64,000 nucleotides of DNA from the NCBI GenBank assembly GCA_035400585.1, contig DAOMZR010000001.1, positions 434,643-498,642 on the forward strand, written 5' to 3'. A program made the translations under genes and the position numbers. Each line of letters begins with the position of its first letter. Positions within the stretch are counted from its first letter, which is position 1. The notes under the pieces are model-generated. The model saw only the letters and a list, made by a program, of their open reading frames with translations. It ran no database searches and was not told where the DNA came from. The stretch is from a bacterium (GTDB lineage: Bacteria > Patescibacteriota > Patescibacteriia > Patescibacteriales > UBA12465). Below, in pieces: positions 11,562 through 40,290 of this stretch.

Positions 11562-11578
11562 AATTTATAGTAAATATT

Positions 11579-12253
11579 TTATAATTCAACTTGCAAATCT
11601 CTAACATTTGTCAAAACTTGATTCTTAGAGGTTTCCGGATTATATGAATTATAATAAAGTTCTATTAGTTCCTGAGTGTTCAATTGCTTAACATCAACAC
11701 CCAAAGATAAAAGAGAAGACATAACACTATCAACTCTTCTAGCCAAAGCCTCTTTGTATCTTAAAAATTTAACTTCTTTCAATTTAAAAATTGTAGATGG
11801 TTTCAAGGCCTCGGATAAAAGAGAAAAAAATCCTTTTCTTTTATCGCCAGCCGGATTGTAAGAAACAACAACAAAGAATTTTTTGTTCATAATTTTTCCG
11901 ATGGAAACCAACTCTTTTATGTATTCTATATACTCAGCAGTCTGTATTTTCAATAAACGATTTGTCTGCTCTCTTTCTTTGTTTTTTAAATAATCCAAAT
12001 AATTTTGAATATTTAAATCTCTGGATTGAATAACAATTTGTAGTGGCGTATTTAAATTATTTAAAAAACTAACATAACTAGAAATAATGGCATTTTGCTC
12101 ATCTTCACTTTTTAAAGCAAAATTAATACTGGATACAGATAAAACTGCTCTAAGACTGCCATCTTTTACAACAACGGTATCATATTTAATTTCAGCGACA
12201 TCCAAATATTGCTGAGTTGATGGGGCTTGCATTTTTGCTTTTTTCTCTGGCAT
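11579..12253 (-). CDS. VirB4 N-terminal-domain-like protein (separate 224-aa ORF)
   Basis: STQQYLDVAEIKYDTVVVKDGSLRAVLSVSSINFALKSEDEQNAIISSYVSFLNNL resembles the N-terminal module of Gram-positive VirB4 homologs. 224+633 aa is close to the size of a full VirB4. It lies 17 nt upstream of the ATPase ORF and in a different frame. Confidence 0.55.
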   Translation of the reverse strand: MPEKKAKMQAPSTQQYLDVAEIKYDTVVVKDGSLRAVLSVSSINFALKSEDEQNAIISSYVSFLNNLNTPLQIVIQSRDLNIQNYLDYLKNKEREQTNRLLKIQTAEYIEYIKELVSIGKIMNKKFFVVVSYNPAGDKRKGFFSLLSEALKPSTIFKLKEVKFLRYKEALARRVDSVMSSLLSLGVDVKQLNTQELIELYYNSYNPETSKNQVLTNVRDLQVEL

Positions 12254-22378: not shown

Positions 22379-25300
22379 TTATTCAATAGATATGCAATCT
22401 GGATCGTGTGGATCACAAGGTTCATCTGGGTCAACAACGTCAGGACAAACAGGGAAGAAGCTTGGCTCATAACCGCATCTATAACACATATTAGACGATA
22501 CTCCATCAGTCTGACACTGACAACAATACTTATTTTCCAAATTAAAATAACAGGAATTAGAATCACAGGTTGTTGTGCCAGTTATAGGATTGACCACCAC
22601 TACTGGTTTTTCTGGAACAATATAAGACGAGCAAGAGAACAATGGACCACTTATATAGTCATCGCAGGATTCACATGAATCTGAACTTAAATCACCATTT
22701 GAACAACAATTTGTAAAACAACTTAGATTATAATAAGTCGGATTTGAAGAATTAAAACCACCAATACCGGAACATCTAAAGAAATCCCAATTATCAACTA
22801 CTTTAATAGTTATAATATATTGGCCAGGGGTAAGAAAACGCACTAAGCGATGGGGATTGGATTCGTTGGGTCGATGATCAATCGGACCTAGAATAATTGG
22901 AGCACTGTTTTTCCAGTCTTCGGTAGTCTTCTTTATTTTAATTGTCATTTGCTTGATTGGAGATTGTTCTCTATCAACTACGGTATTAAAAGAAATAGTA
23001 TAAAAACCAGAGGCAACAACATTATAAATATTTGACTCTACTTCCGTTTGATTAACCGCTCCATAAGGACCGCTAATTTTAATATTATTAATTTGTGGCC
23101 AAACAGAACAAACCCTGGTATTGTCTCTTTCTGGGCAACCATAAGAATTACAATTAACGGCTGGGGTTAATGGGGCATCTACTCCATTCAAATGAGCATA
23201 ACCAGAGTCCAAACTAACCTTAGCAAATATATTTTTTAAAGCATCAGAGGCACCACTGGTTGTGTTGGACCAACTACTTCCTGTATCGATAAATCTGTTT
23301 TGAGTATCCAAACTAGTTGTTAATTTAATTTTACCAGATGCTTTATCATAATAAAGAGACTCACAAGAGTTTCTATATCCAGCACCAGTTCCAGTCATAT
23401 AAATAGAACTTGATGTGCCAATACAAGAATAGGGCAGACCATAAAGCAAAGAATCACCGATACTGCTAGCGTAAACATTCTGACTTCCAACATCTCCATC
23501 GGTATTAATAGCACCAAAAGGAACACTAACAGACCCAAGCCTATAATGACTAAAAGGAGCACTAGTTAAAGAATTATTATATTGTTGCAATGAATATTGA
23601 GATGATTTTAATCTCTCTACCCAAGGAATTTCTCCTTTTATAAATTTATCGCATTTAGGAACATATTTATCGGGATCCATTAAACAAGCTCCATTTTTAT
23701 TGGGATCAGTGACGGCCAGAGAATCCTGAGCACAATAAGTAGAAGAACATCTACCATTTCCAGTTCCAGCTGGTATAAAAGTTGTTGTTCCATATAAACC
23801 ACCTTCGCATTCAGATTTTTTAATATTATAGGCTAAAAGTTTTTGACCGTTATCGGTTTCTGTTTTTCCTTTTAAACTACCGTCATATAAATACCACCCG
23901 GCTTGCGATTTATAAGTTGAACCATTAGGATTTCCATCGGAGAAATTTCGAGCCTCAAATCTTTCCCACCAACCATTTCTAGCATCACAAGCCATAGTAT
24001 CACAACCGCTACAAGAAGTATTACAATTACTTCCGCGACAGCAGAGAACAGCGTTTCCACCGCAACTATTTGTGCCGCCACCAGTTATACTTTTAGCCGT
24101 GGTTTGTGATCCATAAACTATTTTACTGTTTGTAGGAATTATTAGTCTTGAACCTGTAATTGGCAAGCAGAAATAAATTTTCATATTATATTTTTCTCCG
24201 CCACCATAGTTATACCAAATATCACGACAATCGCTAGCATCAGAATCATAAAGCTTGTTTAAAACATTATGATAATTAGAATCACATCCTGAACCACCAT
24301 AGAAATAAACACCCTCATTAACCGTACCGTCACTAGTGGTTACATCCCTTAAATAAACATCCCTATATTCAACTAAGCTAAAATCAGCATTCATTCGACC
24401 ACAATAAATCGGCTGAAGACCAGTATCAGCATACCCCGAGAAATTAGTTGTTAAATCCGAGTTAGCGCTACCAACCACTGAATCAACCGGATACCACAAC
24501 AAACAAACATTTTCATTAGCTGGGTCTTTTTGTAAACAATAACCTTCCCAACCTTGCTCTATAAAGCTGTAACCCTTAGAATCACTGTAACAAGAAATGC
24601 TATCTTGTTTTGGATATAATCTGCAAGAAGCTGGTAAATAAGTATTTTCGGCTGTTTCTAAAGCTGGTTCAACATTAACATCATCAAAGTATAACCAACC
24701 ATTATTGGCAGTATCATTATCAAGAGATGGGCTTAAAATCAATCTAAAGCCATTATTCCAATCACTAGCTGTTTTAAATTTGATACTAATTCTCTGCCAA
24801 TCCTTTTTACTGACATCAACTGATATTTCGGTTGATTCATTTTCAACAACAACCCCATTTTTTACACCCACTATTTTTCCTAAAACTTTTTCTACATTTC
24901 CACCTTCTGTCAATCTATAATTAGCAGTGTTAATTAAAAAATTTAGATAATAATCGGAACTAGTATTTACACTCACTACTGGAGAATACCAAGCCCAATC
25001 ACACTCACCACCACCAACTCTAGCAAATCCTAAATTAGAAGGAGATGGATAAGTGGGAAGAACCGATTTGAAAGGAGGTGTGTTAACATCAATTGATTTA
25101 GAAATAAAGCAAGTTGAATCGATGGCTATTAAACTAGAATTGCTGGATTTTTTTCTTTGCCAAGAATTTAAATCTGCCTTTTTTTCAAAATCATTGCTCC
25201 AAACATTAGTACTACCCCTTTGAACCATACTATCTAAATAGTAATTGTTCAAAAGAGAATAACCACTAGCATTACTATCTTTAGCTATACTAAAGGCTCT

Positions 25301-28300
25301 GTTGCCAACTGGTGATTTAGAAAAATTCAAACAGTTTCCACTGGCATCCATAGAAGTACATTGTCCTATTTGCAAACAAACATTTTTATCATTTCCTTTT
25401 TCATCCTTTTCGGTAGTGTAAGAATAACAAGACAACCATCTTCCGCAAACCCTATCTGGTTTAACTTTTATAATTTGGTTAGCATCTTTATAAGCGGTGC
25501 TAGGAGCTGGATTATAATTAGCATAATCACTCGAATTATATCTAAAACTACTAAAATTTGGCCAACCATTAGAACTTACCTCTCTTTCGTTAAATATTAT
25601 ACAACCATTATTAAAGTTAGGACCGCTACAAGAAGAAAAATCTAGATTGCTTTTTATTTTATAATCAACGATTAACTCCCTCCAATCAATGGAAACTTTA
25701 CTAATATCGGTTGTTCTATTCAAATCAATAATAAACTCACAATCTCCAGCAATATTGTCACCAGAATAAAATAAAAGTTTAGAAGCGTAAGGAGATGTTT
25801 GAGATAATTGATAAAAATCATTACCAGCCAAAGAAACGCTAGATAAAAGATTGTTGCTTTCTAGTTTATAAAAAGTCTTATCGCATCTTATTCTTAGATT
25901 GGCTAAATTTTTATACTTAATAGTATATAACTTATTAGCCTCCATAAAATGATTTACTTGTTTAAAATAATAGACACTATTTTCCTGGTTGCAAGAAATT
26001 GTTTTGGCGCCACTACCAGAATCTACTATTTTACAGTTTAAGCCGGAAACAGTATTGTTTCCATCAGGTGTAACGGCTGTCCAACCATCAAAATAAGTAC
26101 CATCTTCATCAATATCAGAGAAATCAGAATTTAATATCAAATTAGGATTAAAAGAGCTTTCTGGATCTATATATTCAGTACAGCCAGATTCTTTTAGAGG
26201 ACAAAGACCAGCCCAATTAACACCATTAGCTTGAGCTATCGGCTGACTAATTCTAATTCCATTATTACCAATAGTTTTTACTATTCCATAATCACTATCA
26301 ACTGGACAAAGATAATTATTTTCATCAAGAATACATTTTTCCGAACCAGAACAATCAGCATCGGAATTACAAGGATTAGGCAAATTAGATACCGAGAGAG
26401 AGCTATTACAATTAGTATCACCAGGCAAACATAAGTTAGACTGAACCGCTCCTGGAATCAAGCATCTTTTAATCTTTTTAACATACCATTTGTTATCAAC
26501 TAATTGACAAACATTATCCATTGGATCCTTAAAATAACTAACTCCAGATGTAGATGTCCAAGAATCACAACCGATTGCATCGCGAGCGCATAAAGTACCT
26601 TGATTATATTTATCAGGATTATTTTTAATGAAAATATTTTGATAAAGGTAGCTGGAACTGGTTGAATAGATATTAGAGATTGCTTTTCCGAACAAAGAAC
26701 AACCTTTATCTGCTGGATTACAAATTTTAGAGCTATCGTAAACAACCAAAGAAAAATTATCAGCTGGAACTTCTAGACAATCTTGACCAGCAGAACAACT
26801 ACTAATAGATTCATTTAATTGACCATTGGAAAAGAAGGCGTTTTCTTTCGGAGTATAATTATGAGTATCAATCATCAACTCACAACCAACGGCCGATGAG
26901 TCACACAACTTCGAAAATTGCCTCAAAGTATGTTTGGTATTAGAGCGATCTAAATAAGTAGAACAGCCTAAATTGTAGTTTGGACCTTGATATTTAGAAG
27001 TTTGATCATAATAACAAATATTAGGAGTATTCCAAGAATTTTTAATTAAGTAATATCTGCTATTGGTTTCTGAAAGAATTAGGTCATCAATATAAACAGT
27101 GTCTGGTCCGTTGTTCTTAATAAAAATCTTCTCACCAGAATCAACATCGTGGTCAAGATCTTCTAGATTTATTTTATAAATCTGCCAAGTAGAACCTTTT
27201 ATTGGAAGATTGTTTTCGCTAACTCCAGTAGAAGTATTAACGTTTTTGAAATTAGAAATTTTTCCAGCAGAATTCATGAAATAAATTTCCAAATTAGAAG
27301 AATTAGCTGTGCCATTTTTAGATAAGAAGCTAATCAAATAAGAATTTCCTTTACTTAACAAGCCAGAAATATCTCTGCTGATTTCGGATGAACTATTTAT
27401 TCTAATTGATTTTCCATTGTTGTTTAAAGACTCTGTAGATTCAAAACCTCCCTGCCAATTAGAAACATTTTGTTCAAAATCATAAGAAGTTAAAATCTTT
27501 GTATTACTTCCAGAGTTACCACTATACTCCCTACAAGAATTCTCGGAAGCAGAGCAAGTCTTGCCTTCGCCTGGAATTGCTTGATAAACACAAGCATTTT
27601 GGTTATCATCCCACTTTCCACCATTTAAACAATGAAAGCAAACAAAACTATCTTCTGTCTGATCGCTAACATAATCGTCAACAACTGCTGTTTGCCATTT
27701 AGCTACTATTTTTCCGGCTGTATTTAGGTTATTACAATCAACTGCATTAGTTATAGTTCTATCAATATTTCTATCTGTCATTCTGAAACGCTTACAATTA
27801 TCGGAACAAGTTAAAGTTTTAGAATACAAAACATAGAAAACCTCTCCCGCTTGATTATAAAATTCGCGACAATCAGAATTATATCGAGGATCAGAAACGG
27901 GAAGTTTACTAATTTCTCTACTACAAACATCAATTCCGGAAATCACATGCTTGTATGAATCACCCGTCGAAAATAAACTACCAGAAGTAAGAGATAATTG
28001 AGAACTATTCATGGCTAACTTGAAAGATTTTAATTGATAGCCACTTTCATCACTTCCCTCCCAAGAATAAAAGTTAGAACAAACACCTTCTTCTGGTTTA
28101 ATACACTGTCTTAAATAACTATAATATTCAATTCTTTCTCCACCAGAAGAAAGATCTTCTAAGTTAGTAAATTGACTACAACCAACGCTACTAGCTGAAC
28201 ATTTTTTAGCTGTTTTAGGAATAAGACGATAAGGATAATCACTTTCAAAAACAGTTGATTTTTGAACATAGACATCATAACCATCGCATTCAGAAGGACA

Positions 28301-30940
28301 ATAATCTTTATCCATGGCTTTAGCGGGAACACTTCGACCATCACTCATTTTAAACAAATCGCAACCTAATTCATCAAAATTACAAAGTCTAGCATAACGA
28401 TAACACTCCGAAGGAGCATCTGATTTTAATCTATAATCTGGATTAGCAGAATACGGAGCAACATAACAAGTATTTTTTAAATAATCTGGAATTGTTTTTA
28501 AATAAATCAAACCATCACCTCTATAATCAGAATAAAATGTTCCAATTGAGCCTTTTTCTAATTTAAGTTGATCAAAATAACACTGGCCACCAGCACCAAT
28601 ATTTATTCTAAAATTAACTTCTGACCCCGAATAATTATCAGGATAGGTGTAAGACACTGTTTGATAAGAAAAGTTGGGTGAAGGAGAAACAACCTTTGAA
28701 TCTTCGGTTGACATATCAGCGATAGATGCCGTAGAAGTGGCCGTACATTTTGAGTAAAAAGATAATGTAAAAGTTTCTCCTCTTAAAAAATTATCATCAG
28801 GACCAACAATAGTTGAACCATTTAAAACATCTCCACCGGTCAATAAAATTCCGCGACTTCCATCATAGCCAATATTTTCTTGTATTTTGTTTTGTTGAAA
28901 ATAAGAAGTCCAACTTTCGTTTGTTTCAAATCCTCCATTAACCAAGAAATTGTGACCAAAACCCGATTTAGTTCTTATAAATTCATTACATCCCTCTGAA
29001 CCAGAAGAGCAAGTTTCGGCCTTACTATTTAAATGAATAGCGCCATCAGAGCTCCAATTAACCTTAGAGTTAGCAACATCATAAGTTCCATTTTTAGCAT
29101 AAATACTACAACCAGAATTACTAGCATCACAAGGGGTATACTTTATGGTATTTTTTAATAAAGCCAATTTTTTTCCAGAAGAACTAGTAAGAGATTCACA
29201 AGTGTTAAAAACTGAAGAACAAGAATCACTATTAAAATTCCAAGTTCTTTTTTCTTCTGTACAATATCCGTAAAACTGACAACTACCATCATTAGCCTCT
29301 TTAATACATGATCTTTCATCGGCACAATAACTATCACTTCTGATAATCATAATATCTTCGCTAGCTTCTTGAACGACCTCGCCAGCTGAATTTTTAGATT
29401 CAGGAATTGATATTAATTGAGTAGACAAAACGTGACCACCATAACCCTGACGAGCGCAATAATTTACAGGTGCTTTCAAAACCCAATATGGATCAACCAG
29501 GCCTCTGCACCACTCAACTTCGCTTTCGTTGTTAGGGTCGTGTGGGAAGTTTTTACTATATTGGTTATACTCATCGCTACCACTAAAACAAGAAACTAAA
29601 TCCATTATTGTATATTGACCAGAGTTTGATTTTTGCAAAGGAGTAATTCTGTTTAAAGCTTCTTCCCATCCCAGAGGAACTATTCTAAATTTTCTTAAAA
29701 TCATTAAAGATCTTTTATTCAAAGTATTTTTATAATCTCCATTTTCAGAAAAAAGCATACCGGAAGAAATAGAACCATTGTTTATTGCCTCTATTAAGGT
29801 ATTTTGATTTTCAATAGCCCTACCAAAAGATTGTCCAATAACGCAGTTATTGGGTCCGCTATAAGAATTTTCACTACCACAAATCATAAGCTCGGCTAAA
29901 ATACTATAGTCAGTTTTTTCAGTAAACTTAGGCGTTAAAACTTTTTTAAGTGTCTCTGTTAATGTTGCTTCACTATAATAAGAAGAGGGATCAGCTTCCG
30001 GAGAACTCAAAATAAAAGGATTGCTAGGAGTAACTTTATTGTCTCCATTTCTGAAATCACTATATGATTTCAAGGCTGAGTTGATAAGTGATATTAAAAG
30101 TTGATTGGAAAAAATATTAACAGCATCAACAAAAATGTCACTTGAAGTTTGACCAAATGTTTTAGTGGTTAAATCTCTGGTTTGATCGGTTTCTCCCTGC
30201 ATTGCTCCAGGAACTGATTCTTGTTTTCCGGCAATATTTCTTACATCCAACCAACCCTGATTAAAGCTTAATTGAGTTTCTACTTTTTCTTTTTCTTTAT
30301 CACCACTTTCTAGAACTTTATCCAACAAACTCATGGTTATACCGATATCACTAGCTGAAGGATCAATAGAGGCTGCTACTTGATCTAAAAATTTAAGAGG
30401 ATCATCAGCATAAGACGCCCATCTATCAAATTCATTTTTCCAGCCATTTTTCATTTGTTGCCATCCGCACTTAGGTTCAACCGGGCGATAATTAGCAGTT
30501 AATCCCAAACCAATTTTAGTTTTTATACTTATATTGGGTTCGCAAAAATTAAAATCCCATTCTTTGCCTAAAACATCTAAAGCTTCCCCAATGGCCGCAT
30601 CTCTAATATTATCACCGTATTTTGTCCAGTAATCAGTTTCCCACATAGGCTTTTGTCCTCCAGCGGCCGTACCAAGATAAGTAGCCGAATCATAAGCCAA
30701 GGTATATAAAGAAGCTCTCAGGGCCGATTGAAACATGCTAGATCCCATTTTAACCAAAAATTTATCTTTATTCTTTTCTACCCAATCAGTAACTTTTCTA
30801 ACAACGGCGACTGGACCTCCAATAATATCAGAAGCATACACCCTTGTTGGGAAAATAAAAAAACTAAAAATAAAAGAAAAAAGCAAAAAGACAATAATGC
30901 CTTTTTCATAAAACCTTTTAGTAGGAGTTCTTTTAATCAT
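22379..30940 (-). CDS. Giant (~2850 aa) cysteine-rich extracellular/surface protein with an N-terminal membrane anchor or signal
   Basis: The ORF track gives 22379-31033. I prefer Met32 (ATG at 30940, MIKRTPTKRFYEKGIIVFLLFSFIFSFFIFPTRVYAS), which removes the 68-nt overlap with the upstream gene. Several segments carry CBM/jelly-roll-like signatures (FLVNGGFETNESW, NLILNSDFSDIDEDGTYFDGW, YDFEQNVSNWQGGFE). Cys is scattered throughout, with 11 Cys in the last ~85 aa. Confidence 0.8.
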   Translation of the reverse strand: MIKRTPTKRFYEKGIIVFLLFSFIFSFFIFPTRVYASDIIGGPVAVVRKVTDWVEKNKDKFLVKMGSSMFQSALRASLYTLAYDSATYLGTAAGGQKPMWETDYWTKYGDNIRDAAIGEALDVLGKEWDFNFCEPNISIKTKIGLGLTANYRPVEPKCGWQQMKNGWKNEFDRWASYADDPLKFLDQVAASIDPSASDIGITMSLLDKVLESGDKEKEKVETQLSFNQGWLDVRNIAGKQESVPGAMQGETDQTRDLTTKTFGQTSSDIFVDAVNIFSNQLLISLINSALKSYSDFRNGDNKVTPSNPFILSSPEADPSSYYSEATLTETLKKVLTPKFTEKTDYSILAELMICGSENSYSGPNNCVIGQSFGRAIENQNTLIEAINNGSISSGMLFSENGDYKNTLNKRSLMILRKFRIVPLGWEEALNRITPLQKSNSGQYTIMDLVSCFSGSDEYNQYSKNFPHDPNNESEVEWCRGLVDPYWVLKAPVNYCARQGYGGHVLSTQLISIPESKNSAGEVVQEASEDIMIIRSDSYCADERSCIKEANDGSCQFYGYCTEEKRTWNFNSDSCSSVFNTCESLTSSSGKKLALLKNTIKYTPCDASNSGCSIYAKNGTYDVANSKVNWSSDGAIHLNSKAETCSSGSEGCNEFIRTKSGFGHNFLVNGGFETNESWTSYFQQNKIQENIGYDGSRGILLTGGDVLNGSTIVGPDDNFLRGETFTLSFYSKCTATSTASIADMSTEDSKVVSPSPNFSYQTVSYTYPDNYSGSEVNFRINIGAGGQCYFDQLKLEKGSIGTFYSDYRGDGLIYLKTIPDYLKNTCYVAPYSANPDYRLKSDAPSECYRYARLCNFDELGCDLFKMSDGRSVPAKAMDKDYCPSECDGYDVYVQKSTVFESDYPYRLIPKTAKKCSASSVGCSQFTNLEDLSSGGERIEYYSYLRQCIKPEEGVCSNFYSWEGSDESGYQLKSFKLAMNSSQLSLTSGSLFSTGDSYKHVISGIDVCSREISKLPVSDPRYNSDCREFYNQAGEVFYVLYSKTLTCSDNCKRFRMTDRNIDRTITNAVDCNNLNTAGKIVAKWQTAVVDDYVSDQTEDSFVCFHCLNGGKWDDNQNACVYQAIPGEGKTCSASENSCREYSGNSGSNTKILTSYDFEQNVSNWQGGFESTESLNNNGKSIRINSSSEISRDISGLLSKGNSYLISFLSKNGTANSSNLEIYFMNSAGKISNFKNVNTSTGVSENNLPIKGSTWQIYKINLEDLDHDVDSGEKIFIKNNGPDTVYIDDLILSETNSRYYLIKNSWNTPNICYYDQTSKYQGPNYNLGCSTYLDRSNTKHTLRQFSKLCDSSAVGCELMIDTHNYTPKENAFFSNGQLNESISSCSAGQDCLEVPADNFSLVVYDSSKICNPADKGCSLFGKAISNIYSTSSSYLYQNIFIKNNPDKYNQGTLCARDAIGCDSWTSTSGVSYFKDPMDNVCQLVDNKWYVKKIKRCLIPGAVQSNLCLPGDTNCNSSLSVSNLPNPCNSDADCSGSEKCILDENNYLCPVDSDYGIVKTIGNNGIRISQPIAQANGVNWAGLCPLKESGCTEYIDPESSFNPNLILNSDFSDIDEDGTYFDGWTAVTPDGNNTVSGLNCKIVDSGSGAKTISCNQENSVYYFKQVNHFMEANKLYTIKYKNLANLRIRCDKTFYKLESNNLLSSVSLAGNDFYQLSQTSPYASKLLFYSGDNIAGDCEFIIDLNRTTDISKVSIDWRELIVDYKIKSNLDFSSCSGPNFNNGCIIFNEREVSSNGWPNFSSFRYNSSDYANYNPAPSTAYKDANQIIKVKPDRVCGRWLSCYSYTTEKDEKGNDKNVCLQIGQCTSMDASGNCLNFSKSPVGNRAFSIAKDSNASGYSLLNNYYLDSMVQRGSTNVWSNDFEKKADLNSWQRKKSSNSSLIAIDSTCFISKSIDVNTPPFKSVLPTYPSPSNLGFARVGGGECDWAWYSPVVSVNTSSDYYLNFLINTANYRLTEGGNVEKVLGKIVGVKNGVVVENESTEISVDVSKKDWQRISIKFKTASDWNNGFRLILSPSLDNDTANNGWLYFDDVNVEPALETAENTYLPASCRLYPKQDSISCYSDSKGYSFIEQGWEGYCLQKDPANENVCLLWYPVDSVVGSANSDLTTNFSGYADTGLQPIYCGRMNADFSLVEYRDVYLRDVTTSDGTVNEGVYFYGGSGCDSNYHNVLNKLYDSDASDCRDIWYNYGGGEKYNMKIYFCLPITGSRLIIPTNSKIVYGSQTTAKSITGGGTNSCGGNAVLCCRGSNCNTSCSGCDTMACDARNGWWERFEARNFSDGNPNGSTYKSQAGWYLYDGSLKGKTETDNGQKLLAYNIKKSECEGGLYGTTTFIPAGTGNGRCSSTYCAQDSLAVTDPNKNGACLMDPDKYVPKCDKFIKGEIPWVERLKSSQYSLQQYNNSLTSAPFSHYRLGSVSVPFGAINTDGDVGSQNVYASSIGDSLLYGLPYSCIGTSSSIYMTGTGAGYRNSCESLYYDKASGKIKLTTSLDTQNRFIDTGSSWSNTTSGASDALKNIFAKVSLDSGYAHLNGVDAPLTPAVNCNSYGCPERDNTRVCSVWPQINNIKISGPYGAVNQTEVESNIYNVVASGFYTISFNTVVDREQSPIKQMTIKIKKTTEDWKNSAPIILGPIDHRPNESNPHRLVRFLTPGQYIITIKVVDNWDFFRCSGIGGFNSSNPTYYNLSCFTNCCSNGDLSSDSCESCDDYISGPLFSCSSYIVPEKPVVVVNPITGTTTCDSNSCYFNLENKYCCQCQTDGVSSNMCYRCGYEPSFFPVCPDVVDPDEPCDPHDPDCISIE

Positions 30941-30965
30941 ATTGTTTATAGAAATTTTTAATTGA

Positions 30966-31757
30966 TTATTGGCTAGTCTCCATTGATTGATAAAGAGACT
31001 GACGATAAATATCAAGGAGCTCTTCATCACCAATCAGGTCTATTTCGTCTTTACTAAAACCAGCCTCTATTAATTGCGATCTTAAATCGGCTGGAGATAT
31101 ATTATAAAGCTGAGAAATTGATTCTGAATTCAAGACCTGTCCTTGATTATTTGTGTTTGCACCATTACTCAAAGACTCTAATAAACCATTTTGATCTACC
31201 GTTGACTCGGTGCTTTGTGAACTAGAAACAGAAGAAGAACAATTTTGCCCTTGAGGACAAGTTGGATCGGTTTTATAGGCAAAAATTTCTTCATAATCAT
31301 TAAGATTGTCACCATCGGTGTCTTCTAAATAGGGCGAAGTTCCGTGAACAAATAATTCATCCCAATCAGAAATAGTATCACCATCAGTATCGACTAATTT
31401 TAAGTCCATATTTTCCGAACTTAAATTATCTCCAGTGGCAGAACAATTTCCGTCAGCACAATTTGATTGATTGGAAGAATTTTCTGTTTCAGGAATGTTG
31501 ATTACAAATGGTTTTTTTATGTTGCTTCTTAAATTTACAAAAAAAATAACAATAACCAACAAAGAAAAAAGACTTAAAACCCCTAGAGCTATTTTTCTTT
31601 CTTTCTCCATTTGTTTAAAAGTCTGTTTGACAGAATTTACTGAATTATCAAAAACAACACCGGAAGATTGTTTTTCTCCATTAACATAAGGCGAGTCCTG
31701 TTCTTTGTCGTTATACAAATCATCGACTCGCTCATATTTTTGTTTATTATATTCCAT
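30966..31757 (-). CDS. Bitopic membrane protein with thrombospondin type-3-like Ca-binding repeats
   Basis: TM helix ALGVLSLFSLLVIVIFFV. Repeats DTDGDTISDWDE and DTDGDNLNDYEE are flanked by Cys pairs (CADGNC, CPQGQNC). Confidence 0.65.
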   Translation of the reverse strand: MEYNKQKYERVDDLYNDKEQDSPYVNGEKQSSGVVFDNSVNSVKQTFKQMEKERKIALGVLSLFSLLVIVIFFVNLRSNIKKPFVINIPETENSSNQSNCADGNCSATGDNLSSENMDLKLVDTDGDTISDWDELFVHGTSPYLEDTDGDNLNDYEEIFAYKTDPTCPQGQNCSSSVSSSQSTESTVDQNGLLESLSNGANTNNQGQVLNSESISQLYNISPADLRSQLIEAGFSKDEIDLIGDEELLDIYRQSLYQSMETSQ

Positions 31758-32668: not shown

Positions 32669-35314
32669 CTATTTAATAACTATGTTTACTAGTCTATTTT
32701 TTACAAAAATAATTTTAACAATTTCTTTGCCTTCTAACCATTTTTTTATCAAATCCTTTTCTTTGGCCATACCAACAACTAGTGATTCTTCGCTGTCAAA
32801 ATCAATCTCAACCTCATCTCTTAATTTTCCATTGATTTGAATGGCTATTTTTACTCGCTCATCTTTAATTAAATTTTTATCATATTCTGGCCAAGCCAAG
32901 TCGAAAAGACTTTCTTTTTTTTCTGGATTTAACTTATGGTAAATTTCTTCACCAAGATGAGGTGCGAATGGGCCAAGTAATTTAATAAAAACAATTAGAA
33001 CTTCTTTGCTTATTTTTTCTTTTGTTGATAAATGATTTAACAAAATCATCATCTGGGAAACAGCAGTATGAAAGGAAATATTTTCTATATCTTCTCCAAC
33101 TTTTTTAATTGTTTTGTGCAGAATATTCAAAGTTTCTTTGTCGGCTATTTCATCATCAATTTCCTTTTCGCTTAAATTCCAAACTTTATTTACAAATCTA
33201 TTTATTCCATTTATGGCTGACGTTGACCAAGCGGAAGTATCTCCATAAGGCCCCATAAACATTATATAAATTCTCATGGTATCTGCACCATATTCTTCAA
33301 TAACATCATCTGGATTGATAACATTTCCCCACCTCTTACTCATCTTTCTTCCATCTTCAGCTAATATCAAACCATGTTGAACCCTTCTTTTATATGGTTC
33401 CGAAACAGGGACGATTCCTTTTTCATACAAAGCCTTATTCCAAAATCGAGAGTAAAGCAAATGAACTGTTGTGTGTTCGGCTCCGCCGAAATAGATATCA
33501 ACTGGCATGAAGTATTTTAAACTTTCTTCTGAAGCCATTTTTTGGTTATTGTGCGGATCTATATATCTTAAAAAATACCAAGAAGAACCAGCCCACTGGG
33601 GCATAGTATTGGCTTCCCTTTTAGCGTCTTGACCGCATTTTGGACATTTTACATTTACCCAAGAATCTATTTTAGCCAAAGGAGACTCGCCAGTTCCACT
33701 TGGTTCATAGTTTTCGACTTCTGGCAAAAGAAGTGGTAACTCATTTTCAGAAATAGGAACATTTCCGCAAGTTGGGCACTTAATAATTGGAATCGGTTCT
33801 CCCCAATATCTTTGGCGAGAGAACAACCAATCCCTAAGTTTATAGTTTATTTTTCTTTTTACAAAACCTTCTTTTTCTCCTTTGATAATCATTTTTTCTC
33901 TAGCTTCAGACGAAGTTAAACCATTAAAATCATTAGAATTTATCAAAAATCCATCTTCCGTATAACAAAAATTTAAACCGTTACTATGATAATCATTATA
34001 ACATTCTATCGGTGTTGAAGCAGTGCCGGTCGCTTGGTGTGAAACCGGGATTGTCACCTTGTGTTTTGAGGGTTCAAATCCCTCGACCGGCTCAACACCG
34101 TTTAATGCTATGTTGACTTTTTCATTTTTTTGATGTATAATATTCCCATCAAGGTGACAATCCTGATTCTCACTATTTAGTGTTGAATCCTCCGAAGAAG
34201 ACTCTGAAAATTCAGGGTCTTTTTCTTTTACAATAACTTTTTTAATCTCTAAATTATACTTTTTAGCAAATTCAAAGTCACGTTCGTCGTGAGCTGGAAC
34301 AGCCATAACAGCTCCCGTGCCATAAGAAGCTAAAACATAATCAGCTATAAAAACGTCAACTTTTTCATTATTAAATGGATTTATAGCTTTAATACCTTCT
34401 AGTTTAATTCCGCTCTTTTCTTTATTTAAATCAGTTCTTTCTAAGTCTGATTTATTTTTTATTTTATTTATATAATTTTCCACTTCCGACCAATTTTCAA
34501 TCCTATTTTTTAGTTCTAAAACTAATTTATTTTCTGGTGCTAAAACAACATAAGTACAACCAAAAATAGTATCAATTCTAGTAGTAAAAACTTTTATCTT
34601 CTCAGAAAAATTATCAATCGTAAAATCTATTTCAGCTCCCTCTGATTTTCCAATCCAATTCCTTTGACTAGTTTTAATATATTCCGGCCAGTTTAAATCA
34701 TCTAAGTCTTTAATTAACTTTTCAGCATAATCAGTTATTTTTAAAAACCATTGTTTCATTTTTTTCTGTTCAACATCACTGTCACATCTTTCACATTTAC
34801 CATTTATGACTTCTTCATTGGCCAAGCCAGTTTTACAAGAAGGGCACCAATTAATCGGAGCTTCTTTTTCGTAAGCTAAACCCATCTCAAATAATTGCAA
34901 AAATATCCATTGCGTCCATTTATAATAATTTGGATCGGTTGTATCTATTTCTCTATCCCAGTCAAAAGAAGGACCAAAGCTTTTAATTTGTCTTCTAAAA
35001 TTATCAATATTATTTTTAGTAAATTCCCCTGGATGTTTTTTATTTTTAATAGCAAAATTTTCAGCCGGCAAACCAAAAGCATCCCAGCCAATGGCATTTA
35101 AAACATTAAAACCGTTCATTCTTTTGTAACGAGAAAAAATATCAACTGCTGTTTGCCCTTTAACATGACCAACATGAACACCAGCTCCAGATGGATAAGG
35201 AAATTCCACTAAACTATAAAACTTTTTTTTATTGGCATCTAGATTGATTTTATAGGTTTTATTTTCTTCCCAATATTTTTGCCATTTTTTTTCTATATTT
35301 TTATGGTCGTACAT
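32669..35314 (-). CDS. leuS: Leucyl-tRNA synthetase carrying a ~90-aa insertion
   Basis: N-terminus MYDHKNIEKKWQKYWEENKTYK, HIGH variant AGVHVGHVKG, KMSKRWGN. Extra segment KEKDPEFSESS...NFCYTEDG between the AHDERDFEFAKKY block and FLINSNDFNGL. Confidence 0.95.
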   Translation of the reverse strand: MYDHKNIEKKWQKYWEENKTYKINLDANKKKFYSLVEFPYPSGAGVHVGHVKGQTAVDIFSRYKRMNGFNVLNAIGWDAFGLPAENFAIKNKKHPGEFTKNNIDNFRRQIKSFGPSFDWDREIDTTDPNYYKWTQWIFLQLFEMGLAYEKEAPINWCPSCKTGLANEEVINGKCERCDSDVEQKKMKQWFLKITDYAEKLIKDLDDLNWPEYIKTSQRNWIGKSEGAEIDFTIDNFSEKIKVFTTRIDTIFGCTYVVLAPENKLVLELKNRIENWSEVENYINKIKNKSDLERTDLNKEKSGIKLEGIKAINPFNNEKVDVFIADYVLASYGTGAVMAVPAHDERDFEFAKKYNLEIKKVIVKEKDPEFSESSSEDSTLNSENQDCHLDGNIIHQKNEKVNIALNGVEPVEGFEPSKHKVTIPVSHQATGTASTPIECYNDYHSNGLNFCYTEDGFLINSNDFNGLTSSEAREKMIIKGEKEGFVKRKINYKLRDWLFSRQRYWGEPIPIIKCPTCGNVPISENELPLLLPEVENYEPSGTGESPLAKIDSWVNVKCPKCGQDAKREANTMPQWAGSSWYFLRYIDPHNNQKMASEESLKYFMPVDIYFGGAEHTTVHLLYSRFWNKALYEKGIVPVSEPYKRRVQHGLILAEDGRKMSKRWGNVINPDDVIEEYGADTMRIYIMFMGPYGDTSAWSTSAINGINRFVNKVWNLSEKEIDDEIADKETLNILHKTIKKVGEDIENISFHTAVSQMMILLNHLSTKEKISKEVLIVFIKLLGPFAPHLGEEIYHKLNPEKKESLFDLAWPEYDKNLIKDERVKIAIQINGKLRDEVEIDFDSEESLVVGMAKEKDLIKKWLEGKEIVKIIFVKNRLVNIVIK
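34011..34099 (+). other. GC-rich tRNA-like palindromic element, antisense inside the leuS insertion
   Basis: GGTGTTGA (34011-18) pairs with TCAACACC (34092-99). GCCGGTC (34025-31) pairs with GACCGGC (34085-91). GAGGG-TTCAAAT-CCCTC (34068-84) is a canonical T-arm directly abutting the 3' acceptor-like strand. I counted 50 G+C in 90 nt. Confidence 0.5.
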
Positions 35315-39120: not shown

Positions 39121-40290
39121 ATGAAAAAAAATTTCACTAGAATCGTTTTTTTTCTTCTCGCTTTAAATATTTTTCTTTTTCCAAAAATAGCTTTAATGAG
39201 TGAAGAAACCCTAAAAACAAAACCAGTTAATTTTACTCCCCAAGTAACCATTCCTGGATCTGAGTTCATAAAAGGAACCCAATACACAATAGAAGACTCA
39301 ACCACTACTATTTCAAAATATGTAAAAGCTGTTTACGATTACTTACTTTCTATAGTGGGAATAACTGCTGCTATAGTTTTGATGGTCGGTGGTATTATGT
39401 GGCTGACCGCTGGTGGCAGTAGCGAAAAAGTAAGTCAAGCTAAAAGTTGGATTAGCGGAAGCTTAACTGGCATGGTTCTAGCTCTAACCTCTTATTTAAT
39501 ATTACAAACAATAAATCCTCAACTGGTTAGCTTCACGCCAACCGAAGTTCCACAAATAAAGCCATTGGTTAACGGCTGTTGTGAGTACAATACTGTCGCT
39601 GGCTCTAATTCAACCGTTGCTGAAGATATAACTGATATTGACTGTTATAATATTTACACAACCAAGGCTATTCCTAAACTACAAGAAATAACCAATGAAC
39701 AATTAAAGGATGGCTACCAAGGAAATATTTCTGATTATTTGGGACCTGAAAGATTTGATAAAGACAAAAGAGCCAACTATTCCAAGGGGATATGTGAAAC
39801 TATTGTATACTGTGAAATTTATTCTCAAAGGGTTTCTAACAAAACCTTACAACAAAGACAGGAGGCGACAGTTATTGCTCAAATGTCTAAAGAAATGTGT
39901 GGTGAATTTGGTAAAAACGGCTTAAAAGCTGGTTTTTATGAAAAAGATGAGTTTTGGTTAGAAAAAAATGCTTTGCCTCAGCAAGTTTATAAAAAAACTT
40001 GTGAAAACAGAGAGGGCTCATCTTGTAATAATTCAGATTATATTTATTGTTATTGTTATGGAGGAAAAGCTTATATTAATGTTGGCAAAAAAAATGAACC
40101 CTGTGGAAATGACGGAGGAAAATGCGTACCGAACGTAAGTTTAAAAGAAGAATACAGAACACCGGAACAAAATGATATGTGCGAAAACAAAGATCATGGT
40201 TCAAGAGACTGCGGAAGTGGATTAATTTGTTGTGAACCAAGCGGAATATGGGGTGGCTATAATCCAGGAAATAATTATGATAGCTGGTAA
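39121..40290 (+). CDS. T4SS-pilin-like (TrbC/VirB2-like) N-terminal domain fused to a Cys-rich C-terminal domain
   Basis: Signal/TM, then VGITAAIVLMVGGIMWLTAGGSSEKVSQAKSWISGSLTGMVLALTSYLILQTINPQLV. This is two hydrophobic helices flanking an AGG..EKV..AK loop, as in T4SS pilins common in CPR. The C-terminal ~245 aa holds 16 Cys. Confidence 0.6.
   Translation: MKKNFTRIVFFLLALNIFLFPKIALMSEETLKTKPVNFTPQVTIPGSEFIKGTQYTIEDSTTTISKYVKAVYDYLLSIVGITAAIVLMVGGIMWLTAGGSSEKVSQAKSWISGSLTGMVLALTSYLILQTINPQLVSFTPTEVPQIKPLVNGCCEYNTVAGSNSTVAEDITDIDCYNIYTTKAIPKLQEITNEQLKDGYQGNISDYLGPERFDKDKRANYSKGICETIVYCEIYSQRVSNKTLQQRQEATVIAQMSKEMCGEFGKNGLKAGFYEKDEFWLEKNALPQQVYKKTCENREGSSCNNSDYIYCYCYGGKAYINVGKKNEPCGNDGGKCVPNVSLKEEYRTPEQNDMCENKDHGSRDCGSGLICCEPSGIWGGYNPGNNYDSW

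What the first reader, a model, noticed from the sequence alone, without database searches (positions are those of the whole stretch)
33957..34228. In-frame ~270-nt insertion in leuS containing a GC-rich, tRNA-like palindromic element on the antisense strand
Relative to the usual short linker between the AHD.RD.EFAKK block and the G.L.NS..FNGL block, this LeuRS has about 90 extra residues. At the core of the insertion (34011-34099, about 55% GC by my count against a ~30% background) the plus strand folds as an 8-bp outer stem and a 7-bp acceptor-like stem. A textbook T-arm GAGGG-TTCAAAT-CCCTC abuts the 3' acceptor strand, exactly as in tRNA. The 36 nt in between cannot form D and anticodon arms. 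The frame stays open through the element, which recalls in-frame palindromic element insertions such as the Rickettsia RPEs. It may be a tRNA-derived mobile or structured element domesticated inside an essential gene.
Basis: seen in the sequence. Interest (0 to 1): 0.6.

Follow-up and report, generated by a model that had tools for sequence, protein, structure and literature searches.

The report
Decayed tRNA-like DNA inserted in leuS
One uncultured Patescibacteria species carries a 219-base piece of tRNA-like, promoter-bearing DNA inserted backwards into its leucyl-tRNA synthetase gene, where it is read through as a floppy 73-residue loop that the enzyme can apparently do without.

Summary
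The insertion is 219 nt (73 codons), window 33969-34187, not about 270 nt. A natural allele without it (808 aa, ...SSEE|CYTE...) fixes the boundaries, and so do the eight closest orthologues (801-805 aa, 74-85% identical), which all lack it.

Its core (34010-34100) is the GC-richest 90 nt of the 64 kb. On the + strand, antisense to leuS, it folds into a 9-bp outer stem, an 8-bp acceptor-like stem and a canonical T-arm. There is no anticodon arm. ARAGORN does not call it at default settings, and no Rfam family reaches its threshold.

The insert also holds the only intragenic near-consensus sigma-70 promoter match in the window. It lies in a four-residue loop of the CP1 editing domain, is modelled as disordered, and its peptide evolves almost neutrally (12 nonsynonymous to 7 synonymous variable sites, against 40 to 204 elsewhere in the gene). 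I found no other copy anywhere I could search.

Best reading: captured non-coding DNA, namely a decayed tRNA pseudogene (possibly class II) plus a neighbouring promoter, tolerated in a permissive loop. I found no evidence of mobility or domestication. An antisense RNA function is not excluded.

The parts
32669..35314 (-). leuS (leucyl-tRNA synthetase, 881 aa), the host gene
   Evidence: ORF. Pfam finds tRNA-synt_1, the LeuRS editing domain and Anticodon_1. Closest solved structures are T. thermophilus and E. coli LeuRS.
33969..34187 (-). The insertion proper: 219 nt, 73 codons (STLNS...GLNF, with the junction codon changed from E to D), translated in the leuS frame
   Evidence: The empty-site allele L088/P0143 reads GAA GAG|TGT (SSEE|CYTE). 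Orthologues P0148-P0155 have the same short junction. Only the leuS frame is free of stops; the other five frames have 2-10.
34010..34100 (+). GC-rich structured core, bounded by the 9-bp outer (leader-trailer) stem 34010-34018 / 34092-34100
   Evidence: It is invariant in 9 haplotypes except 34010 C>T, which keeps a U-G pair on the + strand.
34025..34091 (+). tRNA-like unit. Acceptor-like stem GCCGGTCG 34025-34032 / CGACCGGC 34084-34091, then a degenerate 35-nt middle with no anticodon arm, then the T-arm
   Evidence: Sub-threshold Rfam hits to tRNA-Sec (20.7 bits) and mascRNA (18.6 bits). ARAGORN calls it only at a relaxed threshold, with a 2-nt 'anticodon'.
34068..34084 (+). T-arm GAGGG-TTCAAAT-CCCTC. 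Most other strains have TTCAACT, a change at loop position 59
   Evidence: The identical 17-mer sits in 77 ARAGORN-called tRNAs on viral contigs, of which 26 are Ser and 23 Leu.
34036..34058 (+). Possible D-arm remnant: GGTG/CACC stem around a loop that contains AAACCGG
   Evidence: Read directly from the sequence. It resembles the D-arm GCGAAACCGGCAGACGC of tRNA-Leu(CAA) in L049. Among isotypes Leu gives the best mean alignment score, but only weakly (14 of 300 shuffles reach it).
34043..34061 (+). Left arm of a 19-nt inverted repeat (89% complementary). The partner is 34150-34168, also inside the insertion
   Evidence: I1.
34150..34168 (+). Right arm of the same inverted repeat
   Evidence: I1.
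34113..34141 (+). Near-consensus sigma-70 promoter match TTGACT-17-TATAAT (11 of 12), antisense to leuS and inside the insertion
   Evidence: It is one of only 9 sites scoring at least 11 of 12 in the window. At least seven of the other eight lie between the ORFs, five of them just upstream of a same-strand gene; the eighth (position 178) lies where no ORF of 120 aa or more is listed.

Best explanation
The insert is a 219-bp fragment of non-coding-type DNA. It consists of a decayed tRNA (pseudo)gene with leader-trailer pairing, possibly of class II (Leu or Ser) type, followed by a sigma-70-type promoter. It was inserted in inverted orientation into leuS in the lineage of one Falkowbacteria-related Patescibacteria species.

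It landed in a four-residue surface loop of the CP1 editing domain, a spot where other CPR LeuRS carry quite different insertions, including a whole NUDIX domain. Its length is a multiple of three and the leuS frame happens to hold no stop codon. The gene therefore stays intact and the insert is translated as a 73-residue loop with no confident fold, which the enzyme tolerates.

The tRNA-like fold is a relic of the donor DNA, not a working tRNA.

Shown: the insertion boundaries, the species-specificity and allelic polymorphism, the RNA-type anatomy, the relaxed protein-level constraint, and the low-confidence structural model.

Inferred: the donor (a tRNA locus plus promoter), the mechanism of capture, and the near-neutrality of the insert.
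For: - Boundaries and polarity. Allele P0143/L088 (808 aa) lacks exactly 219 nt. Its junction SSEE|CYTE matches orthologues P0148-P0155 (801-805 aa, 74-85% identical), for example NNEE|CYVDDG.
- No homologous peptide. A search of 1.84 billion representative proteins gave only short, repeat-inflated matches to giant repetitive proteins.
- Not an assembly error. The insertion is present in 11 of the 12 listed cluster members that span the site, and in nine distinct leuS haplotypes assembled from different samples and archives.
- Foreign composition. The core is the GC-richest 90 nt of the window, with GC3 of 0.52 against 0.22 for the gene.
- tRNA-type anatomy. The exact T-arm occurs in real tRNAs, 64% of them Ser or Leu against 22% in the background.
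- Promoter. The insert holds one of only nine promoter matches scoring at least 11 of 12 in the window, and at least seven of the other eight are intergenic. That fits an intergenic donor.
- Permissive site. The T. thermophilus LeuRS alignment breaks at residues 368/373. The Pfam editing-domain match stops at residue 375. NUDIX and other inserts sit at the same site in relatives.
- Dispensable peptide. Variable sites run 12 nonsynonymous to 7 synonymous inside the insert against 40 to 204 outside (Fisher p 2e-5). Residues 370-448 have pLDDT below 50 and no secondary structure in a model with mean pLDDT 83.5.
- Survivorship. Only the leuS frame is open, and about 1% of shuffles give an open frame.
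Against: - No donor sequence was found. No real tRNA with this acceptor and T-arm combination turned up in the viral or metagenome contigs.
- The class II or Leu assignment is weak.
- The core is more conserved than the rest of the insert (3 of 91 against 16 of 128 variable sites, Fisher p 0.026). All three changes are compatible with the + strand fold. A pure relic would not predict this, although 7.6% of 91-nt windows in leuS are equally conserved.
- After a divergence that left about 10% of sites variable, the core is still 55% GC in a 31% GC genome.
- The internal 19-nt inverted repeat and the 8-nt repeat GTGTTGAA that ends exactly at the insert boundary are unexplained.
- Low pLDDT may simply reflect the lack of homologues in the alignment.
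Confidence: 0.55

Rival explanations
1. It is a copy of a small non-autonomous mobile element, a MITE- or RPE-like palindromic element, that inserts into genes and survives where it stays in frame. Other copies would exist elsewhere in this genome.
For: - Clean presence/absence polymorphism, with the empty site identical to the ancestral junction.
- Strongly palindromic, GC-rich core in an AT-rich genome.
- In-frame insertion in a surface loop, as described for Rickettsia palindromic elements (my own knowledge: Ogata et al. 2000).
- An 8-nt direct repeat GTGTTGAA at 34012-34019 and at the insert's right end, 34180-34187 (D7).
Against: - No second copy within 3 mismatches of 24 nt in the 64-kb window, nor in a further 8 kb or so of the same genome.
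- None in the viral contigs, phages or plasmids.
- The 21-nt T-arm-plus-acceptor probe gave no true hit in the metagenome contigs; its one match was chance. That scan did not return the organism's own contigs either, so it is not a strong negative.
- The inverted repeats are internal, not at the ends of the 219-nt unit, and no target-site duplication flanks it.
- Variation inside the insert (19 of 219 sites) matches the flanks (244 of 2427). It has therefore sat there for as long as the strains have diverged.
Confidence: 0.15
2. The insert is a functional antisense RNA module. Its promoter drives antisense transcription into leuS, or a stable tRNA-like RNA is made from the + strand. That RNA could be a tRNA-Leu-like decoy lacking the anticodon arm, which LeuRS, RNase P or the CCA-adding enzyme might bind. 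Either would modulate leuS expression.
For: - The only intragenic promoter match scoring at least 11 of 12 in the window lies in the insert, on the antisense strand.
- A terminator-like hairpin with a U-run follows on the + strand at 34196-34231.
- The core is more conserved than the rest of the insert, and its few changes spare the + strand fold: 34010 C>T gives U-G on + but A-C on -, and 34041 and 34078 lie in loops.
- The acceptor, D-like and T elements are kept while the anticodon arm is lost. In bacterial LeuRS the anticodon arm is dispensable for aminoacylation and identity rests on A73 and the D/T tertiary core (PMC2377443).
Against: - The tRNA-like unit lies upstream of the strong promoter, not downstream. 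Only a weak (9 of 12) match precedes it.
- The discriminator position is U, not A73, and A73U costs about 45-fold in leucylation (PMC2377443).
- The unit is buried in a leader-trailer helix.
- No Rfam family reaches its threshold.
- No covariation is available.
- The conservation is within the range of 7.6% of leuS windows.
- An allele without the module persists.
Confidence: 0.15
3. The 73 residues are a functional peptide module added to the editing domain, for example a binding loop. The RNA-like features would then be incidental.
For: - The frame is kept open.
- The insertion allele is the common one, carried by 11 of the 12 listed cluster members that span the site.
- The site hosts a functional-looking domain (NUDIX) in relatives.
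Against: - The nonsynonymous-to-synonymous ratio is about nine times that of the rest of the gene.
- No confident structure is predicted.
- No Pfam domain covers it, and no credible homologue exists among 1.84 billion representatives.
- The empty allele persists.
- A peptide function would not explain the tRNA-type T-arm and acceptor geometry, the promoter match or the GC3 anomaly.
Confidence: 0.07
4. It is a chance resemblance, or an assembly artefact.
For: A T-arm-plus-acceptor motif arises by chance in 1-5% of shuffled windows.
Against: - The same insertion, with a few base differences, occurs in nine distinct leuS haplotypes assembled independently from different samples and archives.
- The GC peak, the 9-bp outer stem, the fold z-score of -5 and the exact match to a common real T-arm all coincide.
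Confidence: 0.03

Closest known systems
Rickettsia palindromic elements (RPEs) and other MITE-like repeats found in frame inside protein-coding genes
   Same: A short palindromic, structured DNA sits in frame in an essential gene, at a surface-exposed and tolerant position. It is translated rather than removed, and it is present in some lineages and absent in others.
   Different: RPEs and MITEs are multi-copy families with recognisable ends. Here only one copy is known, the inverted repeats are internal, and there is no target-site duplication. The core looks tRNA-derived and carries a promoter match.
tRNA pseudogenes and tRNA-like RNAs that lack an anticodon arm (for example mascRNA, Rfam RF01684)
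   Same: It has an acceptor stem stacked on a canonical T-arm, a degenerate middle and a leader-trailer helix next to the tRNA-like unit. It gives a sub-threshold mascRNA-model hit (18.6 bits).
   Different: The score is below threshold for every Rfam family. The unit is embedded antisense in a bacterial coding sequence, and there is no evidence of transcription or processing.
Lineage-specific insertions in the CP1 editing domain of LeuRS in CPR bacteria (for example the NUDIX-domain insertion seen in P0002, P0156 and P0158)
   Same: It occupies the same position, between the AHDERDFEFAKK block and the YT.DG.L.NS block.
   Different: The NUDIX inserts are recognisable folded domains shared by many species. 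This insert has no homologue, no predicted fold and RNA-gene-like DNA features.
tRNA-mimic operators in aminoacyl-tRNA synthetase mRNAs (E. coli thrS type)
   Same: A tRNA-like structure is physically associated with a synthetase gene.
   Different: Those operators lie in the 5' leader on the sense strand and mimic the anticodon arm. This one is internal, its tRNA-like strand is antisense, and it lacks the anticodon arm.

Membership tests
Canonical tRNA gene | 7-bp acceptor stem directly followed by a 5-bp T-stem with a T-loop of the form TTCRANY | tested here: met
   GCCGGTC/GACCGGC plus GAGGG-TTCAAAT-CCCTC. The same T-arm is found in 77 real tRNAs.
Canonical tRNA gene | Anticodon arm (5-bp stem, 7-nt loop) and a regular D-arm at the standard spacing | tested here: not met
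   The 36 nt between the stems give no anticodon arm. The relaxed ARAGORN model needs a 2-nt 'anticodon' and a mismatched acceptor. The D-like stem has an oversized 15-nt loop.
Canonical tRNA gene | Detected by standard tRNA finders and by the Rfam tRNA clan at gathering score | tested here: not met
   ARAGORN default gives 0 genes in the window. Rfam at gathering threshold gives 0 hits. The best hit in the clan is 20.7 bits against a required 47.
tRNA-Leu (as the donor isotype) | Leu-type D-arm (U8 G9 G-Y-G, GAAAYYGG loop) and discriminator A73 | tested here: inconclusive
   The AAACCGG loop and TGGTG...CAC resemble Leu D-arms. Leu has the best mean score and 16 of the top 40 hits, but 14 of 300 shuffles reach that mean and the top score is not significant. 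The discriminator is U, not A.
MITE / RPE-type mobile palindromic element | Multiple dispersed copies in the genome | tested here: inconclusive
   No copy in about 72 kb of this genome or in any collection searched. The rest of the genome could not be searched.
MITE / RPE-type mobile palindromic element | Terminal inverted repeats and a target-site duplication at the insertion boundaries | tested here: not met
   The boundaries are 33969 and 34187. The inverted repeats are internal (34010-34100; 34043-34061 with 34150-34168), and no duplicated flank is present.
MITE / RPE-type mobile palindromic element | Presence/absence polymorphism with an intact empty site | tested here: met
   L088/P0143 compared with nine filled haplotypes, and orthologues with the same junction.
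Intein | Hint-domain blocks: N-terminal Cys/Ser, C-terminal His-Asn followed by Cys/Ser/Thr, and a length of at least about 130 aa | tested here: not met
   The insert is 73 aa and has no Hint or intein Pfam hit. It ends ...NGLNF|C with no HN.
Folded domain insertion in LeuRS CP1 (NUDIX type) | Recognisable domain shared among species | tested here: not met
   No Pfam hit in residues 376-448. No credible homologue. pLDDT below 50.
Synthetase mRNA tRNA-mimic operator (thrS type) | Sense-strand structure in the 5' leader that overlaps the ribosome-binding site and mimics the anticodon arm | tested here: not met
   The unit lies 1.2 kb inside the ORF. Its tRNA-like strand is antisense and has no anticodon arm.

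The most novel reading that the evidence does not exclude
The insert is a segregating regulatory cassette. It would supply an anticodon-arm-less tRNA-Leu mimic and an outward promoter, placed antisense inside the gene for the very enzyme that recognises tRNA-Leu through its acceptor, D and T core. The + strand RNA would titrate or sense LeuRS (or RNase P or the CCA-adding enzyme) and, together with antisense transcription, tune leuS expression. That would explain why the GC-rich core resists decay while the peptide drifts.
Probability: 0.07. Interest if true: 0.8.

Novelty: new variant of a known kind. Interest (0 to 1): 0.4.

Why it matters
It is a clean, datable natural example of protein sequence being born from non-coding DNA: the antisense strand of a tRNA-like gene and a promoter. 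This happened inside an essential enzyme, and the ancestral empty allele still segregates, so the two forms can be compared directly.

It also marks one loop of the LeuRS editing domain as a repeated landing site for insertions in CPR bacteria. If the tRNA-like core proves to be transcribed, it would be an unusual synthetase-linked tRNA mimic. As it stands it is a single-locus curiosity with no demonstrated function.

Tried and rejected
- Real tRNA or tmRNA: ARAGORN in default, tmRNA and intron modes finds nothing. Only relaxed or mitochondrial modes give implausible calls.
- Known RNA family: Rfam gives nothing at gathering threshold across the whole window, and only chance-level hits at E up to 10.
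- Conserved LeuRS insertion: no homologue shares it.
- Homologous peptide elsewhere: 12 hits among 1.84 billion representatives, all short matches summed over repeats in giant proteins, so spurious. There is no similarity to the neighbouring 2884-aa Cys-rich protein.
- A k-mer protein search with the insert alone returned nothing, but it also missed the positive control P0134, so I treat it as uninformative.
- Donor tRNA or further copies: the 21-mer and gapped patterns gave 0 hits in viral contigs. The single metagenome hit (L087) was a chance match in GC-rich coding DNA. The metagenome scan did not return the organism's own contigs, so it is not a strong negative.
- Two more core patterns in viral contigs gave 0 hits. 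Phage and plasmid BLAST gave only trivial hits.
- Profile test of isotype with nhmmer failed because the sequences are too short.
- Intein: rejected on size and motifs.
- Integron attC-like and IS200/IS605-like ends: considered from the sequence and dropped, because the order and ends do not fit.
- Slipped-strand deletion as the origin of the empty allele: there is no microhomology at the boundaries, so I read the empty allele as ancestral rather than as a secondary loss.
- Partial duplication of the downstream flank (NDYHSNGLN against NDFNGLT; 28 nt at 71%, D2): noted, but it is within the range of chance.
- The genome-contig collection had already been used for the LeuRS search and did not contain this species, so the whole genome could not be scanned.
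Full report
**Context.** The finding lies in leuS, on the minus strand at 32669-35314 (881 aa). The organism is an AT-rich (31% GC) member of the Patescibacteria (CPR). The closest LeuRS proteins come from 'Patescibacteria group' and Falkowbacteria MAGs. The identical protein is encoded on 18 contigs, in assemblies held by ENA, JGI and Logan, and close variants are on further contigs, one of them from NCBI. The sequence is therefore not an assembly accident.

**Checking the observation.** The sequence features are as described, and slightly stronger.
- On the + strand there is a 9-bp outer stem (34010-34018 / 34092-34100) and an 8-bp G+C-rich stem (34025-34032 / 34084-34091).
- A textbook T-arm, GAGGG-TTCAAAT-CCCTC (34068-84), runs straight into the 3' strand of that stem.
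- The minimum free energy is -43.7 kcal/mol (z -5.1). The complementary strand folds almost as well, as any palindrome does.
- Window 34010-34099 is the single GC-richest 90-nt stretch of the whole 64 kb (0.556 against a mean of 0.313).
- A perfectly paired T-arm with an adjoining 7-bp acceptor closure turned up in 12 of 1000 shuffled windows. The motif alone has p of about 0.01, and the GC peak and outer stem are additional.
- The 36 nt in the middle make no anticodon arm.
- ARAGORN finds no tRNA at default settings, and no Rfam family reaches its gathering score. The best matches are tRNA-Sec (20.7 bits, E 0.14) and mascRNA (18.6 bits).

**The true extent of the insertion.** The 90%-identity cluster of this LeuRS has 18 members, and the 15 listed are 97-100% identical to it. 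One of them (P0143, 808 aa) lacks exactly 73 residues. Its DNA (L088) reads ...TCG GAA GAG|TGT TAT ACG..., that is SSEE|CYTE. All other alleles have 219 nt between these codons (window 33969-34187), with the junction codon changed from GAG to GAT.

The eight closest orthologues (P0148-P0155) are 801-805 aa long and 74-85% identical. They have the same short junction, for example NNEE|CYVDDG and SIEE|CYTEDG. So the insertion is 219 nt rather than about 270, it arose within this species' lineage, and the empty allele has the ancestral configuration.

No microhomology, terminal inverted repeat or target-site duplication marks the boundaries. L088 is nested, in mosaic fashion, among insertion-bearing haplotypes, which indicates a recombining population. 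Variation inside the insert (19 of 219 sites) is about as high as outside (244 of 2427). The insert is therefore as old as the sampled diversity.

**What the inserted DNA looks like.** Read on the + strand, it resembles a piece of intergenic DNA rather than coding sequence. It runs as follows:
- 41 AT-rich nucleotides;
- the structured tRNA-like unit;
- a T-rich stretch;
- TTGACT-17-TATAAT at 34113-34141 (11 of 12 to consensus).

Only nine sites in the whole window reach 11 of 12 on either strand. At least seven of the other eight lie between the ORFs, and five of those sit just upstream of a gene on the same strand. The eighth, at position 178, lies in a stretch where no ORF of 120 aa or more is listed. 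The site in the insert is the only one that is clearly intragenic.

GC3 of the core is 0.52 against 0.22 for the gene. Only the leuS frame is free of stop codons; the other five frames have 2-10. About 1% of shuffles of the insert give an open frame. That is what one expects if only rare stop-free, in-frame insertions survive in an essential gene.

**Is it tRNA-derived, and from which tRNA?** The exact 17-nt T-arm is present in many real tRNAs. Among 77 ARAGORN-called tRNAs on viral contigs that carry it, 26 are Ser and 23 Leu. Class II tRNAs therefore make up 64%, against 22% among the other tRNAs of the same loci. The base before the T-stem (U) is as in the Leu examples.

The segment GGTG-TGAAACCGGGATTGT-CACC (34036-34058) resembles the Leu-type D-arm, for example GCGAAACCGGCAGACGC in the Patescibacteria tRNA-Leu(CAA) of L049. 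In a comparison across isotypes, Leu has the highest mean score and 16 of the top 40 hits. But 14 of 300 shuffles reach that mean, and the best single score is not significant.

I therefore treat 'tRNA-derived' as well supported, 'class II' as likely, and 'tRNA-Leu' as a lead only. The discriminator is U, whereas A73 is the conserved Leu determinant (PMC2377443). No tRNA with this acceptor and T-arm combination, and no second copy of the element, was found in any of the following:
- the window;
- a further 8 kb or so of the same genome;
- viral contigs;
- the metagenome scan, which gave one chance hit;
- phages and plasmids.

**What it does to the protein.**
- Against T. thermophilus LeuRS (1H3N), residues 2-367 align to 4-368 and residues 447-653 to 373-580. 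The insert replaces a four-residue loop within the CP1 editing domain.
- The Pfam editing-domain match breaks at residue 375.
- Relatives carry unrelated insertions at the same point, including a complete NUDIX domain in many CPR LeuRS of 929-967 aa, and other inserts in P0157 and P0160.
- An AlphaFold2 model has mean pLDDT 83.5, but residues 370-448 are below 50 and have no secondary structure. The caveat is that almost no homologues cover this stretch.
- Across nine haplotypes the insert has 12 nonsynonymous and 7 synonymous variable sites, against 40 and 204 in the rest of the gene (odds ratio 8.7, p 2e-5).
- No credible homologue of the peptide exists among 1.84 billion representative proteins.

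Taken together with the surviving empty allele, the peptide behaves as a tolerated and dispensable loop.

**Residual signal at the nucleotide level.** The 91-nt core has only three variable sites, and all three fit the + strand fold:
- 34010 C>T keeps a U-G pair on the + strand;
- 34041 G>A lies in the D-like loop;
- 34078 A>C is at T-loop position 59.

This compares with 16 variable sites in the other 128 nt of the insert (Fisher p 0.026). It is suggestive, but 7.6% of 91-nt windows in leuS are as conserved, and there is no covariation to test pairing. I count it as a reason not to dismiss an RNA-level role, not as evidence for one. The 19-nt inverted repeat (34043-61 / 34150-68) and the 8-nt repeat that ends at the insert boundary remain unexplained.

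**Verdict.** The best-supported account (about 0.55) is a one-off capture of non-coding DNA, a decayed tRNA pseudogene (possibly class II) plus a promoter, in inverted orientation, into a permissive loop of the LeuRS editing domain. It is translated as a near-neutral disordered loop, and it is still polymorphic.

The rivals are:
- a mobile palindromic element (0.15), which cannot be settled without the whole genome;
- an antisense or tRNA-mimic RNA function (0.15);
- a functional peptide (0.07);
- chance or assembly artefact (0.03).

It is a new variant of the known phenomenon of selfish or non-coding DNA read through in frame (RPE-like). It is of moderate interest, and of high interest only if the tRNA-like RNA proves to be expressed.

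Noticed in passing
Same position as window 33969/34187; proteins P0002, P0156, P0158, P0162, P0163, P0188, P0190, P0193, P0196 and others: Many CPR LeuRS (929-967 aa) carry a complete NUDIX hydrolase domain (PF00293) at exactly this loop of the editing domain. P0157 (849 aa) and P0160 (834 aa) carry other, unrelated inserts there. The loop is a recurrent landing site. A literature search found no description of a LeuRS-NUDIX fusion.
   Followed up: partly
window 34196-34231, + strand: A 14-bp hairpin followed by a U-rich run (AAGAAGACTCTGAAAATTCAGGGTCTTTTTCTTTT) lies inside the leuS coding sequence, just outside the insertion, and the empty allele has it too. It looks like a terminator and sits about 50-85 nt downstream of the promoter match in the insert. 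It accounts for the sub-threshold rimP-leader and ctRNA hits.
   Followed up: partly
window 22379-31033, minus strand: A giant ORF of 2884 aa (TTG start as listed), rich in paired cysteines, with no Pfam hit on record. It lies about 1.6 kb downstream of leuS, beyond two small genes, and its called length varies between strains (2481-2855 aa).
   Followed up: no
window 1-64000, plus L218 (about 8 kb beyond the left end): There is not a single tRNA gene in about 72 kb of this genome. That is sparse for a small genome. It also means the organism's own tRNA-Leu could not be compared.
   Followed up: partly
leuS alleles L088-L094 and L215-L217: Strain haplotypes differ at about 3-6% of sites and are mosaic. 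For example, L088 and L092 are identical over the last 600 nt or so of the gene but differ by 10-18 sites per 300 nt elsewhere. This indicates frequent homologous recombination in the population.
   Followed up: partly
window about 9660-12253, with neighbours (L218 1-2495): Genes with TraC-like and TraG P-loop domains, and further along (window 39121-40290) one with a weak T4SS-pilin Pfam hit. This looks like a type IV secretion or competence-like cluster. Two adjacent ClpB-like paralogues (886 and 898 aa) lie at the left end of the window.
   Followed up: no
window 33913-33940 against 33970-33997: The last 14 residues or so of the insert (ECYNDYHSNGLN) loosely resemble the flank just downstream (ECYTEDGFLINSNDFNGLT). 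At the DNA level this is 28 nt at 71%, plus GARTGTTATA. It may be a partial duplication of the target, or it may be chance (D2).
   Followed up: partly
L049 8200-8390: In another Patescibacteria genome, a tRNA-Leu(CAA) gene and a second copy of the same T-arm 18-mer about 95 nt away (not called by ARAGORN) lie about 2.8 kb downstream of leuS. The T-arm GAGGGTTCAAGTCCCTC is almost identical to that of the element.
   Followed up: no
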